A DNA stretch of 64,000 nucleotides, from the NCBI RefSeq assembly GCF_009914755.1, contig NC_060928.1; one strand, written 5' to 3'. This DNA comes from the human T2T-CHM13v2.0 reference genome, Homo sapiens. The notes beneath the pieces were generated by a model. It was not told the origin of the DNA and searched no databases. It was given only the letters and a program-made list of their open reading frames with translations. Both the position numbers and the translations under genes were made by a program. Position 1 is the stretch's first letter. Every line of letters begins with the position of its first letter. Below, piece after piece: positions 683 through 53,640 of the stretch.

Positions 683-890
683 TTATTGATATTCCGGCCC
701 TTGAATCCTCTTACCAGTCAGCCCAAATGCTCTTATTAGTTCCAAGTAGGAGTACATCTTGTTATTATCAGCATCAAATAGCTCCAGTTGTTCTTGTTGG
801 GGTGTCTCTGCTCCTAGAGGGCTCTGGATTTCACTGTAAGTTAAATAACCATTTGCTTTGTTGTCAGCCCATAGAAAAAGACTTGAAGGT
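683..890 (-). pseudogene. Terminal EF-hand exon of the EFCAB14-like pseudogene (1-nt frameshift near 868-870)
   Basis: Acceptor ttttttattttcatag|ACCTTCAAG at 890. Phase 1 gives DLQVFFYG; the homologous frame then continues in ORF 683..922 (ADNKANGYLTYSE...FDADNNKMYSYLE, two EF-hand-like loops). Possible donor ACTG|gtaaga at 715, or stop at 683-685. Minus-strand AATAAA at 545-550 and 469-474. Confidence 0.85.
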
Positions 891-2536
891 CTATGAAAAT
901 AAAAAAGTTTGGTATATTTCAACTCAAATTTTCAATGTTAACCCAAACATCTACACCTTTCAGAACAGCATTTTGTCCTCCTGGGGCTGGTCTTCTTTCC
1001 GGTCCTCAAACATACCTAGATCATTTTTTGCTTCCACCTTGGCTTTCATTGCACATCACTTTACCACTTCAGTTGCTCCTTTCCTTTCTTTCAACATCCA
1101 GTTTACCTCTTTTCTTCATTCTACTTGAACTATCTGATCATTTACTTTAATAATTTTTCTTCTGTGATCTGTATCCTCATGATGTTTTATATCTAATCTA
1201 GTGTTTTCATTTTCTGTTTGCCTCATTCCTTAACATAAGCACTGTAATGGAATATTCTTCTTCACTGGTAGTCTAGTTTTTGATATATTCATTGGATCTT
1301 CTTTCTCTCCTAAAACTGTTTAAAAACTTCCATCTGGCTACATTTTAATGGCCTTTTTATCACAGTCTTTGCAGTTCCCTTGTTTACATTCATTTGCTAC
1401 CTTCTGTCTAATATTTCTTAATATTACATCAAAAGATACCTACTTATTTGGCTAACAATTCTGAACATACTGATATCTCTTACACTCCTAAGTTAGTAAA
1501 ATTTATTAGTTTATACAAAATCATATGTTTCTTCATTTGTAACACCACCAAATAATATTCCTTTGTCAGTATTCTTATTATTCTCTTGATCTCATTGCTT
1601 TAAGTACTGCCTTTATTAAAACACAAACAAACATTGTTTTCTGTTTCCGAAGTGCCAGGCTCTGTACGTAATACTGGAAATGCAGGGATGAAGAAGCCAT
1701 AGTTTCTGACTTCCAGGGGACAAAACCAGCAAGTAAGCAGTTTCAATAAGCGAAGGAATATATATTGTAATATAGGTACAGACAATGTGCCATTGAAACA
1801 GAGGAAAGTGAGAGAAGTTTCCACCTGGGGATTGTTTCAGTTGAGTCAAAAAGAAAAAATAGAAGCTCACCAGGTAAAGAAATACATAGAGATAATTTTT
1901 GGAAGGCATGACCCTATGGTCAAAGGCATTGAGTTATGGAAGAGTGTGGTACATTGGGGAACTGCAGGTAGTTTGCTCTGATAGGAGTATACATGATGAA
2001 CAGATGTGACCACTATGCTAAGCAAAAACAAACAAACCAACAAAAAACTTTTCTAACTGACCTCAGTCTTACTTACTTTTGGCTCTTTATTACTGTAACA
2101 CAATCTGCTTTGCATTAACTATTCAGTAACTTTCCCCAAGATACCTGTTTATGTTCCTGAGTGTTCGATACCTGGCCATATGGCACAACTTTCAAAACAG
2201 CTGGTGTTAAGCTTCTTGTGTTACAGATGATTTGATGTAATGTAAAGGCTCTCTATTGAAGCTAAATTGTAGATAGACAAAAGGATAGCACTCAAGTTTA
2301 CTTATGCTTGGCTTAGGAAATCTGCAAAACAGTTTTAGTGTGTACAGCTTCTTCTTAGCTAGTTTGCAGAAGAGAAATGATAATTTTTTCATCTTAAAAT
2401 ATGAAAAGGAATATGATCTGGTAATAAAAGAATCCAGCAATTGCAACAATTTATAAACCATTTTTTACTTAACATAGTAAATAAATATAAATGCCTAGGA
2501 GTACTGACTGACAGCGTGTTCAAGATAACAGTGACA

Positions 2537-2858
2537 GGCCGGGTGCAGTGGCTCACGCCTGTAATCCCAGCACTTTGGGAGGCCGAAGCGGGCTGATCAC
2601 CTGAGGTTGGGAGTTTGAGTCCAGGCTGGCCAACATGGTGAAACCTCCGTCTCTACTAAAAATACAAAATTAGCTGGGCATGGTGGTGGATGCCTGTGAT
2701 CCCAGCTACTTGGGAGGCTGAGACAGGAGAATCTCTTGAACCTGGGAGGCAGAGGTTGTGGTGAGCTGAGATCCCACCACTGCACTCCAGCCTGGGCAAC
2801 AAAGTCAGACTCTATCTCAAAAAATAAAATAAAATAAAATAAACAGAAAAGAAAAAGA
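2537..2858 (+). mobile_element. Alu (AluS)
   Basis: Dimeric Alu with (AAAAT)n tail; degenerate TSD ATAAC(A/T)GTGACA. Confidence 0.93.
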
Positions 2859-4249
2859 AATAACTGTGACAGAGTAAGTATAATATTATAATTATCTAGG
2901 CAGTCATGAATTAAATAGGTGTGCATGGGTTACTATATAATGTTGTCTCTGGTATAGAAAGAGAAATTACTACATTAAGGAGTTACTATACAAGAAATAT
3001 AATAACCAAATGTCATATATTTTTTAGAGATTTTAACTCTAGCCATACACATTATTCAATTAGCACTTGCTTCTTCCTGCAATTTTTGGTTTTGCTTGAG
3101 TAGTTATTACTCTATTTTTATTAATCTCCATTTCACAAAAGTATGCATTCCAAATACCAAACCCACATCCCAGAATTATATCAAATGTGGTTTCTAAAGC
3201 TTCCCAAATGTTTGAAAGGAAAGGGATAGGTAAACCAAACTTTTGTATGGCTGAAGGAACTGAGAGCAATAATGAAGTGTGGTAAAATAAGTAATCATGA
3301 CATTTGACTATTAATTTAATAGCTCTCTTTTCAGATTCATTATCTTTTCTCTACCAACAGGTAAATAACACAGACTGTAAAGTAATAGAATTAGGAAAAG
3401 TTTCAGGTTTGTGTGTGGAGCCCCTACAGATACAGTACCTTCTAACCCCTTTTACAAAGATTTGATTAGATTGTTCTAGCTCATTGAGTCTATTATATCC
3501 TAGGAGCTGGCAATAATCAATACTCCTCCTCCTTAGGGATGAAAGAAAATGATTTTTCTTCCTTGATCCTGATTCATTTTGGAGAGAAAGTGAGAAAAGG
3601 AGGCCAGGAAAGCAAACAACCTTGAATTTTCTTCCACTAGAGGCAGATGATGGTATAATCAAATAAATTAAAAACTGCAAACATAGATTTTTTTTTAATC
3701 CATATTCAAAAAATGTTTCCATATTAAGCCCAGAGCTACATTTATATGAGGATTAAAAAAATAGGATTTAACTGATAGGTAGCACAAGATGAAGTGGGAG
3801 AATTTAGATTGGTTCCATGCCTCTACAATGAGAAGTCATTTAGATGTCAACTCTAAGAGAACATTTGTTACATCCCCTATTGCTTCTCCCTCTAGGATTT
3901 TTGCTGAAGTTCTTTTGTCCAAGAGGGAATCAAAAGCTCCTTCCCTTCAAATCATGTCAACCATTTTCTTCTAAAAACAAAAGTAAGAAATACAAACTAC
4001 TGCACACAAATAATATTTAAATAAAAAATCAGAAAGTTATCACTGACTTATTTTATACTTGCTTTAGAGAACTTAAGGTAAATCATTTGCATAGGATGTT
4101 CTATGATGGGTGACTATTTCATGCTCAGGATGCCTGCTCTGTGGCCAACATTTATTGAAGGTCACACCTTAATATACTTTTCTGTTTAAGGAGGTTGGAC
4201 TAGTGGCCTTGAAAGTCCTTCCAATACTGGGTGGGCCATCTGACAAATT

Positions 4250-52200: not shown

Positions 52201-52239
52201 AATTTTGGTGAGCATGAAATGTAAAACCAGCATGAACTC

Positions 52240-52586
52240 TGCTGTGGTTTTAATGTGTCCCCCCCAAAAGCATGTATTGGAAACTTAATCTGCAATGCAG
52301 CAGTGTTGAGAGGTGGGGCCCGTTGGGAGGTGTTTAGGTCAGGAGGGGTCCACTCTCATGAACAGATTAATGCTGATTCGAAAAAGGCTCGAGTCTGGGA
52401 GTTTAAGCTCTTTGTCTCTCTTACCCTGTTTTTGCTCTTCTGCCATGGCCTTTGTCAAATGCTGGCCCTTCAATCTGGAGATTTGACTTCCCAACCTCCA
52501 GATCCATAAGCCAATAAATTTATGTTCATTATAAATTACCCAGTCTCAGGTATTCTGTTATAGCAGAACAAAATGGATTAGGACAA
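52240..52586. mobile_element. MST/MLT1A-like MaLR solo LTR
   Basis: TGCTGTGGTTTTAATGTGTCCCCCCAAAAG...ATAAATTACCCAGTCTCAGGTATTCTGTTATAGCAG. Confidence 0.8.
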
Positions 52587-53437
52587 CCACCTCACTTTAT
52601 TGAGGAATTTTAATTTTAATGGAAATATTTTAAATAGTTTAATTATCTTGGATCATTGATTTCACCAGTGATTTTTTTAAAAACATTTTAATTGTATAAG
52701 GATAAATAGAGTATGCCTAGGATTTAAATCCTGGAGGTAGATTTGTATCAACTTTGGAATACGTTTTAAAAAGCATTAGATGTCAGATATTCATCCAGAA
52801 CAATTGGCTGAGACTCTCTGAAGGTGGTGCCTGGATGCTAATATGTTTTAGTTGAAAAGTTCCCCTGGTGATTCTAATATGTAGCAGATTAGAAAGCTTG
52901 AAATATTGCTCATTTGTACTAAGTCAGGAGAAGAATTGCCCCCTGAAGGGGAAGAAGTCTGTAACTTGATCTTGGTATTCCAATAACATAAGTTTAATTT
53001 TTTCTGAATAATTTAAAGGCAAAGATTCAAGCACCCAAAATATTTTCTTTTCCACTTAGCTCTCATGCCCAGTAAGGGTAGCCATTTATAATAGCTTTTT
53101 AGCTAGAACTCCTAGAAATTAGTGCTTGCTCTCAGGAGATATACATATTAATTCTGAAAGTGATATTGATGCCAAGCCTAGCGTGAGGAAGGAAGCCATG
53201 TTAATCACATGGGTTTCAGCTCCATTAGAAACACCAGAGAGGGAGAGAAATTCCTTTTTGCCAAATGGAAAATGTCAAAAAATCAGCAGGGTAAAAAAGA
53301 ATTGGATTTTCATGCTTCTAAGAAGGAGGAAAATATAAGCAAAATAGAGACTAAAAAAATGCAAGTTAATTCTCCTAAAGAAGTTAATTTGGTACATGTC
53401 CATCATTAATTCAAGGATATTACCCTTTTAAAATTAC

Positions 53438-53640
53438 CATTTCTTTAAAATAAAAATGTCTTCTTCTGCTTCAAGCTTCTTCCAAATCATGTCGTCTCTC
53501 TACCTGCTGTTCCAAAATACTGGTCTAGGCTTGGTAAACCATGAATCTGTCCTTACCTGCTGGTTTAAGTCTTTGAATTGAGAGTCCTTCTGCTGTTATT
53601 CTTTCTACATCCGTCTGCTCACTGGCAATGTTAAAAGATG
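53438..53640 (-). pseudogene. 203-nt degenerate exon of EFCAB14-like pseudogene
   Basis: Acceptor gtatttttcctttaacag|, donor AATG|gtaatt; 203 = 3n+2 (phase 1>0). Encodes SFNIASEQTDVERITAEGLSIQRLKPAGKDRFMVYQA*TSILEQQVERRHDLEEA*SRRRHFYFKEM, stops at 53525-53527 and 53471-53473. An internal donor CAG|gtaagg lies at 53556. Confidence 0.5.

What the first reader, a model, noticed from the sequence alone, without database searches (positions are those of the whole stretch)
683..53640. Fossil multi-exon gene: a lost EFCAB14/KIAA0494 paralog (coiled coil + EF-hand pair)
Seen in sequence: seven minus-strand exons over 53 kb of repeat-rich DNA, with canonical or near-canonical splice sites and phases that chain (1>0, 0>0, 0>0, 0>0, 0>1, 1>1, 1>end). 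Known: EFCAB14 has a transmembrane helix, a long coiled coil and a C-terminal EF-hand pair. The last exon aligns ungapped to the EFCAB14 C-terminus as I recall it (~25/58 identical), and upstream exons echo its coiled-coil segments in the same order. Inference: ~40% identity plus retained introns argue against a recent duplicate or retrocopy. This looks like an ancient (possibly whole-genome-duplication) paralog that died in this lineage, i.e. a unitary pseudogene whose intact ortholog may exist in other vertebrates. The NVT/NLT sequons and Cys residues would fit a luminal domain. The N-terminal TM exon was not found and probably lies beyond 64000.
Basis: partly seen in the sequence, partly recalled or inferred. 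Interest (0 to 1): 0.9.

Follow-up and report, generated by a model that had tools for sequence, protein, structure and literature searches.

The report
Dead human EFCAB14-like gene relic
This stretch of human chromosome 4 holds the broken remains of an ancient calcium-binding membrane-protein gene that is still intact in horses, squirrels, turtles, frogs and sharks, so it is a real but fairly ordinary case of a gene lost in our lineage.

Summary
Seven colinear minus-strand exons (window 53640-53557, 48840-48742, 22591-22418, 16076-15978, 11331-11132, 7051-6953, 890-715) match exon by exon a protein family that databases call "EFCAB14-like" or "uncharacterized LOC" in horse, camel, squirrels, moles, a marsupial, monotremes, turtles, gharial, amphibians, coelacanth and cartilaginous fishes.

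The conceptual human protein is 77% identical to horse. In the gene tree it sits beside squirrels inside the placental clade, which indicates orthology.

It is dead. It carries three frameshifts (exons 3, 7, 9), one TAA nonsense codon (exon 8) and two lost splice sites (exon 5 acceptor, exon 7 donor).

True EFCAB14 on chr1 is a distinct paralog. It is 43% identical in the EF-hand exon, has the same intron position and phase there, and has a matching intron-phase pattern. Several species carry both genes.

Exons 3 and 4 are reused exactly as exons of the predicted lncRNA LOC124900763. RefSeq lists no pseudogene here and six literature searches found nothing. This is a new member of a known kind, the unitary pseudogene, of moderate interest.

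The parts
53557..53640 (-). It is 84 nt and is 11 nt shorter than in horse, zebra, camel, squirrel and platypus, which causes a frameshift near 53596. Both splice sites are canonical. It equals exon 2 of lncRNA LOC124900763.

Coding exons 1 and 2 belong to the same gene but lie OUTSIDE the window, so they cannot be listed as parts.
- Exon 1 is at window-scale 79716-79604 (chr4:118065604-118065716). It holds the ATG and the acidic tail, the frame is open and the donor is GG|GTAAGT.
- Exon 2 is at 73068-72884 (chr4:118058884-118059068). It holds the transmembrane helix and the frame is open, phase 2>1.
   Evidence: plus the hub annotation. For exons 1 and 2: (30/38 and 45/61 identical to horse; profile E 5.8e-10 and 2.5e-15). 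The TGA and TAA reported 'inside' the exon-1 match lie in the intron, after the donor.
48742..48840 (-). Coding exon 4. It is 99 nt, intact, phase 0>0. It equals exon 3 of lncRNA LOC124900763. Horse isoform X4 (P0025) lacks exactly these 33 residues.
   Evidence: 27/33 identical to horse.
22418..22591 (-). Coding exon 5. It is 174 nt, the frame is open and the donor is CAG|GTTTGT. The two bases before the exon (22593-22592) read AA instead of AG, and a TAA lies just upstream in frame. The exon is present in mole, sugar glider, monotreme and turtle proteins, and absent from the horse, camel and squirrel models.
   Evidence: Profile E 2.4e-7.
15978..16076 (-). Coding exon 6. It is 99 nt, intact, phase 0>0. 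It holds a conserved N-x-T sequon and the LQNRLEE motif, which reads LQNCLQE in human.
   Evidence: 27/33 identical to horse.
11132..11331 (-). Coding exon 7. It is 200 nt. One extra A at 11313 shifts the frame, and a TAA follows in the old frame. The donor position 11131-11130 reads AT, not GT.
6953..7051 (-). Coding exon 8. It is 99 nt. A TAA nonsense codon sits at 7031-7029, where the orthologs have Q. The exon is one codon shorter than in horse. The donor is ACAG|GTAAAT, phase 1>1.
715..890 (-). Coding exon 9, the EF-hand pair. It is 176 nt. One G is missing after the GGG at 870-868, which shifts the frame. EF loop 1 has K at ligand position 3. The donor ACTG|GTAAGA is at 714-713.
   Evidence: 48/57 identical to horse.
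683..714 (-). Read-through tail after the exon-9 donor, running to the stop at 685-683. It corresponds to the alternative C-terminal tails of horse isoform X4 and of the camel and squirrel models. The usual last exon (one residue plus the stop) was not located.

Best explanation
The finding is coding exons 3-9 of a unitary pseudogene. It is the human ortholog of an old jawed-vertebrate gene that databases call 'EF-hand calcium-binding domain-containing protein 14-like' or 'uncharacterized LOC'.

Intact members encode a 330-450-residue single-pass membrane protein with these parts:
- a short acidic N-terminal tail (the motifs EKYxLL and DSDxEEFD);
- one transmembrane helix;
- a long coiled-coil region with conserved N-x-T sequons;
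- a C-terminal pair of canonical EF-hand loops.

Inferred: type II topology, with the coiled coil and the calcium-binding pair on the luminal or extracellular side.

In the human lineage the gene lost function and has since drifted. It has three frameshifts, a nonsense codon, two lost splice sites, and substitutions in the helix and in a calcium ligand position. No full-length protein can be made. With the annotated E3-E4 splice, a reading from the old ATG stops a few codons into exon 4.

The splice sites of exons 3 and 4 still work well enough that a predicted lncRNA uses both exons.

The gene is a paralog of EFCAB14 (chr1), from a duplication that predates the split of cartilaginous and bony vertebrates.
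For: Homology to intact proteins.
- The EF-hand exon peptide finds 23 proteins at E<=1e-3 among 1.84 billion representatives. Full-length members are 44-78% identical.
- Named members run from horse to sharks.
- Nine exons map colinearly on one strand.
- Overall the relic is 77% identical to horse over 346 columns. Per exon the figures are 22/28 to 48/57.

Orthology.
- In a 24-row maximum-likelihood tree the relic is sister to squirrels (92/93), inside the placental clade (100/99*) and the mammal clade (100/99*).
- It shares a one-codon insertion in exon 7 with squirrel.
- The human assembly has no other copy. The horse protein hit only this locus and EFCAB14.

Lesions were read directly from the DNA and from the alignment.

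Paralogy with EFCAB14.
- hhalign gives probability 98.7%, E 2.5e-16.
- The last shared intron splits the same Asp codon of DLQ in phase 1.
- Intron phases are 2,1,0,0,0,0,0,0,1,1 in EFCAB14 and 2,1,0,0,0,0,1,1,1 in the relic.
- Grey squirrel, mole, camel and ground squirrel each carry both genes.
- EFCAB14 forms a clade (100/99*) outside all 17 family rows, sharks included.

Architecture.
- TM hydropathy is 2.2-2.8 in the orthologs.
- The EF loops are canonical in 37 sequences.
- The family profile hits the calmodulin-like protein 5 EF pair at E 6.8e-4, and its middle region hits coiled-coil proteins.
Against: - No DNA from other vertebrates was available. Synteny of the intact orthologs (between UGT8 and NDST4) is therefore untested, and the ancestral state at each lesion is inferred from protein alignments only. 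This matters most for the two splice-site calls.
- Exon 5 is absent from the horse, camel and squirrel models, so its lost acceptor may not be a human-lineage event.
- The human branch (0.17) is no longer than the squirrel (0.19) or camel (0.20) branches, so the tree itself shows no acceleration.
- The EF-hand assignment stays below Pfam's gathering score in every sequence tried: 12.5-22 bits against 30.
- hhalign found no similarity to EFCAB14 outside the last 73 columns.
- The intact 'orthologs' are mostly automatic gene models, and some are partial.
- Only one human haplotype (T2T-CHM13) was read.
Confidence: 0.92

Rival explanations
1. The locus still encodes a protein in humans: a shorter isoform, or an intact allele in other haplotypes (a polymorphic pseudogene).
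For: Exons 1, 2, 4, 5 and 6 keep open frames. A database protein (P0002) is a translation of exon 8 (frame 0) spliced to a cryptic acceptor at 833 in exon 9, so some transcript model across these exons exists.
Against: Six independent disabling changes in four exons would all have to be polymorphic. From the old ATG the frame breaks in exon 3. P0002 reads exon 8 in the wrong frame relative to the family. RefSeq lists only lncRNAs here (hub table).
Confidence: 0.03
2. The relic now works as a long non-coding RNA gene. The coding function is gone, but exons 3 and 4 were kept because the transcript LOC124900763 matters.
For: Exons 3 and 4 coincide base for base with exons 2 and 3 of XR_007074916.1 and keep consensus splice sites (hub table).
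Against: The lncRNA is a predicted model. Its other three exons show no family homology. Leftover splice-competent exons are expected in any young or medium-aged pseudogene. No conservation or expression data could be examined.
Confidence: 0.1
3. It is a recent segmental duplicate or retrocopy of EFCAB14 itself, not a separate ancient gene.
For: The only named relative in the human genome is EFCAB14.
Against: It is only 43% identical to EFCAB14 but 77% identical to horse 'EFCAB14-like'. Introns are retained over about 79 kb. EFCAB14 and the family are separate clades. Both genes coexist in four species.
Confidence: 0.01
4. Only the EF-hand exon is a real relic, and the upstream 'exons' are chance open frames.
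For: Against EFCAB14 itself, only the last exon scores.
Against: Against intact family members every exon scores, colinearly and on one strand, with no plus-strand hit below E 9.5.
Confidence: 0.01

Closest known systems
'EFCAB14-like' / uncharacterized LOC genes of other vertebrates. Examples: horse A0A3Q2ICJ4 (P0004), Equus quagga LOC124237259, Camelus dromedarius LOC135319230, Sciurus carolinensis LOC124994178, Ornithorhynchus LOC107547942, Caretta LOC125635720, and Latimeria and shark models.
   Same: The exon order matches and the reading phases chain without a break. Identity to the mammalian members is 71-82%. The domain order is the same: acidic tail, TM helix, coiled coil with sequons, EF-hand pair. 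The relic sits at the expected species position in the gene tree.
   Different: The human copy has three frameshifts, a nonsense codon, two lost splice sites, charged residues in the TM helix, and K at EF-loop-1 position 3, which 0 of 37 orthologs have.
EFCAB14 (KIAA0494), human chr1
   Same: The C-terminal EF-hand-pair module is homologous (hhalign 98.7%). The intron lies in the same codon and phase before it. The first two introns are in phases 2 and 1 around the TM exon, followed by a run of phase-0 introns. The overall architecture is the same.
   Different: It is a separate gene. Identity is 43% in the best exon and nothing is detectable elsewhere. It has 11 coding exons against 10. EFCAB14 ends inside the EF-hand exon, whereas the family usually splices to one more tiny exon. 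EFCAB14 is intact in primates. Its function is listed as 'Unknown' in the one review table read (PMC8156796, passage seen).
Human unitary pseudogenes in general. GULOP and CMAH are examples, recalled from memory; CMAH also appeared in the search listing.
   Same: A single-copy gene is disabled in the human lineage, no functional copy remains in the genome, and intact orthologs exist elsewhere.
   Different: The lost gene has no studied function, its intact orthologs are known only from automatic annotation, and it appears to be missing from many other amniote groups as well.

Membership tests
EFCAB14-like ortholog group | Colinear similarity to intact members across all coding exons | tested here: met
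   Nine exons map in order on one strand. Nine profile hits have E<1, all on the minus strand. Exon 3 is seen only with mammalian queries (E 1.4e-4).
EFCAB14-like ortholog group | Falls inside the family tree at the species-appropriate place | tested here: met
   It is sister to squirrels (92/93), within placentals (100/99*) and mammals (100/99*). An earlier run used a wrong frame for exon 8 and was discarded.
EFCAB14-like ortholog group | Same chromosomal neighbourhood (UGT8-NDST4) in species with the intact gene | not testable with these tools
   No vertebrate genome other than the window's own is held.
EFCAB14-like ortholog group | Intact open reading frame | tested here: not met
   Frameshifts in exons 3, 7 and 9, a TAA in exon 8, and AA/AT at two splice positions. 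It is a dead member, that is, a pseudogene.
EFCAB14 superfamily (paralogy with EFCAB14) | Homologous C-terminal EF-hand-pair module | tested here: met
   hhalign probability 98.7%, E 2.5e-16, 73 columns, 34% identity. In the genome-wide search the relic's EF-hand-exon peptide hit chr1 EFCAB14 at E 1.3e-4.
EFCAB14 superfamily (paralogy with EFCAB14) | Shared intron positions and phases | tested here: met
   The intron before the EF-hand exon lies in the same Asp codon, phase 1. The phase series is 2,1,0,0,0,0,(0,0),1,1 in EFCAB14 against 2,1,0,0,0,0,1,1,1 here. Only the last position could be aligned residue for residue.
EFCAB14 superfamily (paralogy with EFCAB14) | Sequence similarity in the tail, TM and coiled-coil parts | tested here: inconclusive
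   hhalign reported no alignment outside the last 73 columns. The architecture is alike.
EF-hand (Pfam PF13499 / PF13405) | Score at or above Pfam's gathering threshold | tested here: not met
   Human exon: 12.5 and 15.5 bits against thresholds of 30 and 25. Horse 20.1 bits and shark 22 bits against 30.
EF-hand (Pfam PF13499 / PF13405) | Two 12-residue loops with D at 1, D/N at 3 and 5, and E at 12 | tested here: met
   In 37 orthologs, loop 1 has D1 in 36, D/N3 in 30, G6 in 37 and E/D12 in 36; loop 2 has D1 in 36, D/N3 in 35 and E12 in 36. The human relic has K at loop 1 position 3. The profile hits the CALML5 EF pair at E 6.8e-4.
EF-hand (Pfam PF13499 / PF13405) | Calcium binding and EF-hand fold | not testable with these tools
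There is no biochemistry.
Unitary pseudogene | No functional copy elsewhere in the same genome | tested here: met
   The horse protein hit only this locus and EFCAB14 in the whole assembly.

The most novel reading that the evidence does not exclude
An ancient jawed-vertebrate gene for a luminal or extracellular calcium-binding type II membrane protein has been lost many times independently. The groups affected would be primates, murid rodents, most laurasiatherians, birds, squamates and teleosts. It survives in a scattered set of lineages: equids, camel, squirrels, moles, marsupials, monotremes, turtles, crocodilians, amphibians, coelacanth and cartilaginous fishes. The human copy died tens of millions of years ago. 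It is so far unannotated as a pseudogene, and its exons have been recycled into a lncRNA.
Probability: 0.45. Interest if true: 0.5.

Novelty: new member of a known kind. Interest (0 to 1): 0.4.

Why it matters
- It adds a well-documented entry to the list of genes lost in the human lineage.
- It shows that two exons of a RefSeq 'uncharacterized lncRNA' are leftover coding exons. That changes how any conservation or splicing signal in the UGT8-NDST4 interval should be read.
- It points to an unstudied sister gene of the unstudied EFCAB14. The patchy survival of that gene among vertebrates could help to work out what this protein family does.
- It does not open a long-standing question, and unitary pseudogenes are a familiar class.

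Tried and rejected
- Direct comparison of the chr1 EFCAB14 locus with the window found only the last exon plus Alu/L1 noise. A weak hit at window 16442-16356 (E 0.05) does not coincide with any exon mapped later (exon 6 is 16076-15978) and is taken as chance.
- My first guess, that the exon-9 frameshift lay right after the acceptor (note), was wrong. The ortholog alignment puts it after the Gly codon at 870-868.
- The tree used exon 8 coordinates one base off, which put 33 residues in the wrong frame and gave a human branch of 0.29. It was redone (branch 0.17).
- The C-terminal tree used faulty cuts for three rows. It was redone.
- A profile search of the own genome was not accepted. The single horse protein was used instead.
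- Earlier findings were not open.
- The final tiny exon (last residue plus stop) was not located.
- Dating the loss from the tree branch or from lesion counts gives only a rough 'tens of millions of years', which is inference and not a result.
- Literature: searches found nothing on this locus. EFCAB14P1, the one hit for 'EFCAB14P', lies on chr1 (passage seen). The NDST synteny paper (PMC4359090, passages seen) mentions no gene between UGT8 and NDST4.
- The taxa of P0013, P0017 and P0018 remain unknown.

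
Full report
**Observation**

The stop-to-stop frame at window 683-931 (minus) contains two EF-hand-like loops. Pfam sees them only below threshold: EF-hand_6 scores 15.5 bits and EF-hand_7 12.5 bits.

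A six-frame search of the window's own assembly with this peptide gave 4 matches:
- itself;
- chr1:46555704-46555865 (43% over query residues 18-71, E 1.3e-4);
- two insignificant matches (E 0.68 and 5.3).

The chr1 frame is 100% identical to chimpanzee EFCAB14. All named rows among the best 120 of its 413 hits are EFCAB14/KIAA0494 or generic labels, with one row named for the neighbouring gene ATPAF1. The chr1 locus is therefore EFCAB14.

Comparing 50 kb of that locus with the window found only this exon above the Alu/L1 background.

**The family**

The same 68-residue peptide was searched against 1.84 billion representative proteins. It gave 23 hits at E<=1e-3, and 9 at E<=1e-10. These include full-length proteins of 332-452 residues that are much closer than EFCAB14 (44-78% identical).

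Names came from two further searches, with 39 hits and 54 hits. The proteins are labelled 'EF-hand calcium-binding domain-containing protein 14-like' or 'uncharacterized LOC'. The species are:
- placental mammals: horse, plains zebra, Przewalski's horse, dromedary, grey squirrel, Arctic ground squirrel, and three talpids;
- other mammals: sugar glider, platypus, echidna;
- reptiles: seven or more turtles, gharial;
- amphibians: salamanders and many frogs;
- fishes: coelacanth, elephant shark, six sharks and a sawfish.

None of the listed hits is from a primate, murid, carnivore, bat, ruminant, cetacean, bird, squamate or teleost. This absence is weak evidence. One search scored only the 7,998 candidates sharing most words, and it missed the camel and squirrel entries that one search had found.

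**Exon map**

tblastn with horse, turtle, sugar glider, platypus, zebra and squirrel proteins, together with direct reading of the DNA, gives nine coding exons on the minus strand.

| Exon | Window coordinates | Notes |
|---|---|---|
| E1 | 79716-79604 | outside the window |
| E2 | 73068-72884 | outside the window |
| E3 | 53640-53557 | |
| E4 | 48840-48742 | |
| E5 | 22591-22418 | |
| E6 | 16076-15978 | |
| E7 | 11331-11132 | |
| E8 | 7051-6953 | |
| E9 | 890-715 | |

E1 and E2 lie 9-16 kb beyond the window's upper end. They were found by searching the whole assembly with the horse protein. That search returned 10 matches: 7 at this locus, 1 at EFCAB14, and 2 insignificant.

The phases chain as 2, 1, 0, 0, 0, 0, 1, 1, 1.

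Control for chance: a family profile was run against all 6,715 open frames of the 94-kb region. It scored 9 frames at E<1, all on the minus strand and in profile order. The best of the 3,374 plus-strand frames had E 9.5.

Most intact proteins end one residue after '...GLT'. The human DNA has a strong donor exactly there (ACTG|GTAAGA). A tenth, tiny exon must therefore exist, and I did not find it.

**Why it is dead**

- E3 is 11 nt shorter than in five mammals, which shifts the frame.
- The E5 acceptor reads AA.
- E7 has one extra A at 11313, which shifts the frame, with a TAA following. Its donor position reads AT.
- E8 has a TAA at 7031-7029 where the orthologs have Gln, and it lacks one codon.
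- E9 lacks one G after 870-868, which shifts the frame.

Constraint has also gone at conserved residues:
- The membrane helix has gained R, S and D. Its hydropathy is 1.77, against 2.2-2.8 in orthologs.
- EF loop 1 has K at ligand position 3, which 0 of 37 orthologs have.

The two splice-site calls rest on protein alignments only, because no ortholog DNA was available. E5 is also missing from the horse, camel and squirrel models.

**Orthology**

The conceptual translation, with X at the breaks, is 77% identical to horse over 346 columns. Per exon, against horse, the figures are E1 30/38, E2 45/61, E3 22/28, E4 27/33, E6 27/33, E7 45/66, E8 24/32 and E9 48/57.

In a 24-row tree it is sister to the two squirrels (92/93), inside the placental clade (100/99*) and the mammalian clade (100/99*). 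The rest of the tree follows vertebrate phylogeny. A first tree had exon 8 in the wrong frame and is void.

The human end branch (0.17) is not longer than the squirrel (0.19) or camel (0.20) lineages. The tree gives no sign of acceleration, and the age of the loss is open. My rough guess of tens of millions of years, from the number of lesions, is inference only.

**Relation to EFCAB14**

- Profile-profile comparison aligns only the last 73 columns (probability 98.7%, E 2.5e-16, 34% identity).
- I spliced EFCAB14 on chr1. It has 11 coding exons with intron phases 2,1,0,0,0,0,0,0,1,1, and the translation is 482/495 identical to macaque.
- The intron before the EF-hand exon splits the same Asp codon in the same phase in both genes.
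- The phase series of the two genes agree, apart from two extra phase-0 introns in EFCAB14 and the extra terminal intron here.
- Four species carry both genes.
- In a 78-column tree, five mammalian EFCAB14 sequences form a clade (100/99*) outside all 17 family rows, including four cartilaginous fishes.

This fits a duplication at or before the origin of jawed vertebrates. Whether it was a whole-genome duplication was not tested.

**What the intact protein probably is**

Shown:
- one hydrophobic helix after a roughly 55-residue acidic tail;
- a long region that matches coiled-coil proteins;
- conserved N-x-T sites;
- two canonical EF loops, whose profile hits the calmodulin-like protein 5 EF pair at E 6.8e-4.

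Inferred:
- type II topology, with the coiled coil and the calcium-binding pair outside the cytosol;
- oligomerisation through the coiled coil;
- the YxLL and acidic cluster in the tail acting as sorting signals.

No function is known even for EFCAB14. A review table lists it as 'Unknown' (PMC8156796, passage seen).

**Present state in human**

E3 and E4 are, base for base, exons 2 and 3 of the predicted lncRNA LOC124900763 (hub table). Its other three exons show no family similarity.

A database protein (P0002) equals exon 8 in a wrong frame spliced to a cryptic acceptor at 833 in exon 9. Some transcript model therefore spans these exons.

**Novelty**

The RefSeq table supplied with the finding has no pseudogene here. 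Six full-text searches found nothing on this locus or on the LOC names of the orthologs. EFCAB14P1 is a different locus on chr1. GENCODE could not be checked.

The class, unitary pseudogene, is well known, so this is a new member of a known kind and I score interest at 0.4.

Noticed in passing
window 6953-7050 and 690-833, minus strand: Database protein P0002 (68 aa, source unnamed) is exactly exon 8 read in frame 0, spliced from the normal donor (6953) to a cryptic acceptor at 833 inside exon 9. This means a transcript model across these relic exons exists somewhere.
   Followed up: partly
window 30459-31971, minus strand: The annotated processed pseudogene CIR1P2 sits inside intron 4 of the relic (between exons 4 and 5), on the same strand. 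tblastn of turtle P0010 gave a chance-level hit there (E 2.2).
   Followed up: no
window 33870-33936, 34742-34814, 54098-54134, minus strand: The three other exons of lncRNA LOC124900763 lie in introns 2 and 4 of the relic and show no similarity to the protein family. The lncRNA therefore starts at a new site inside old intron 2.
   Followed up: partly
proteins P0033, P0190, P0061 (database names): Two family members carry misleading names: 'interleukin-15' in Platysternon megacephalum and 'structural maintenance of chromosomes protein 2-like' in Emydura. One EFCAB14 entry is named after the neighbouring gene ATPAF1. The elephant-shark entries named 'EFCAB14' (P0179) and 'EFCAB14-like' (P0019) share their N-terminal half and look like isoforms of one family gene.
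   Followed up: no
protein P0013 (732 aa, taxon unknown): A more distant relative has the same acidic tail, helix and coiled coil, but three tandem copies of the EF-hand-pair module (3 matched stretches).
   Followed up: no
proteins P0006, P0009 (75 and 70 aa, taxa unknown): These are short database proteins that cover only the EF-hand exon, with read-through tails and odd substitutions. They may be translated relics of the same gene in other mammals that have lost it.
   Followed up: no
proteins P0004, P0025 vs window 48742-48840 and 22418-22591: The horse isoforms differ by whole relic exons. X4 lacks exactly the 33 residues of exon 4, and all of the horse, zebra, camel and squirrel models examined lack exon 5. 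This independently supports the exon borders read in the human DNA.
   Followed up: partly
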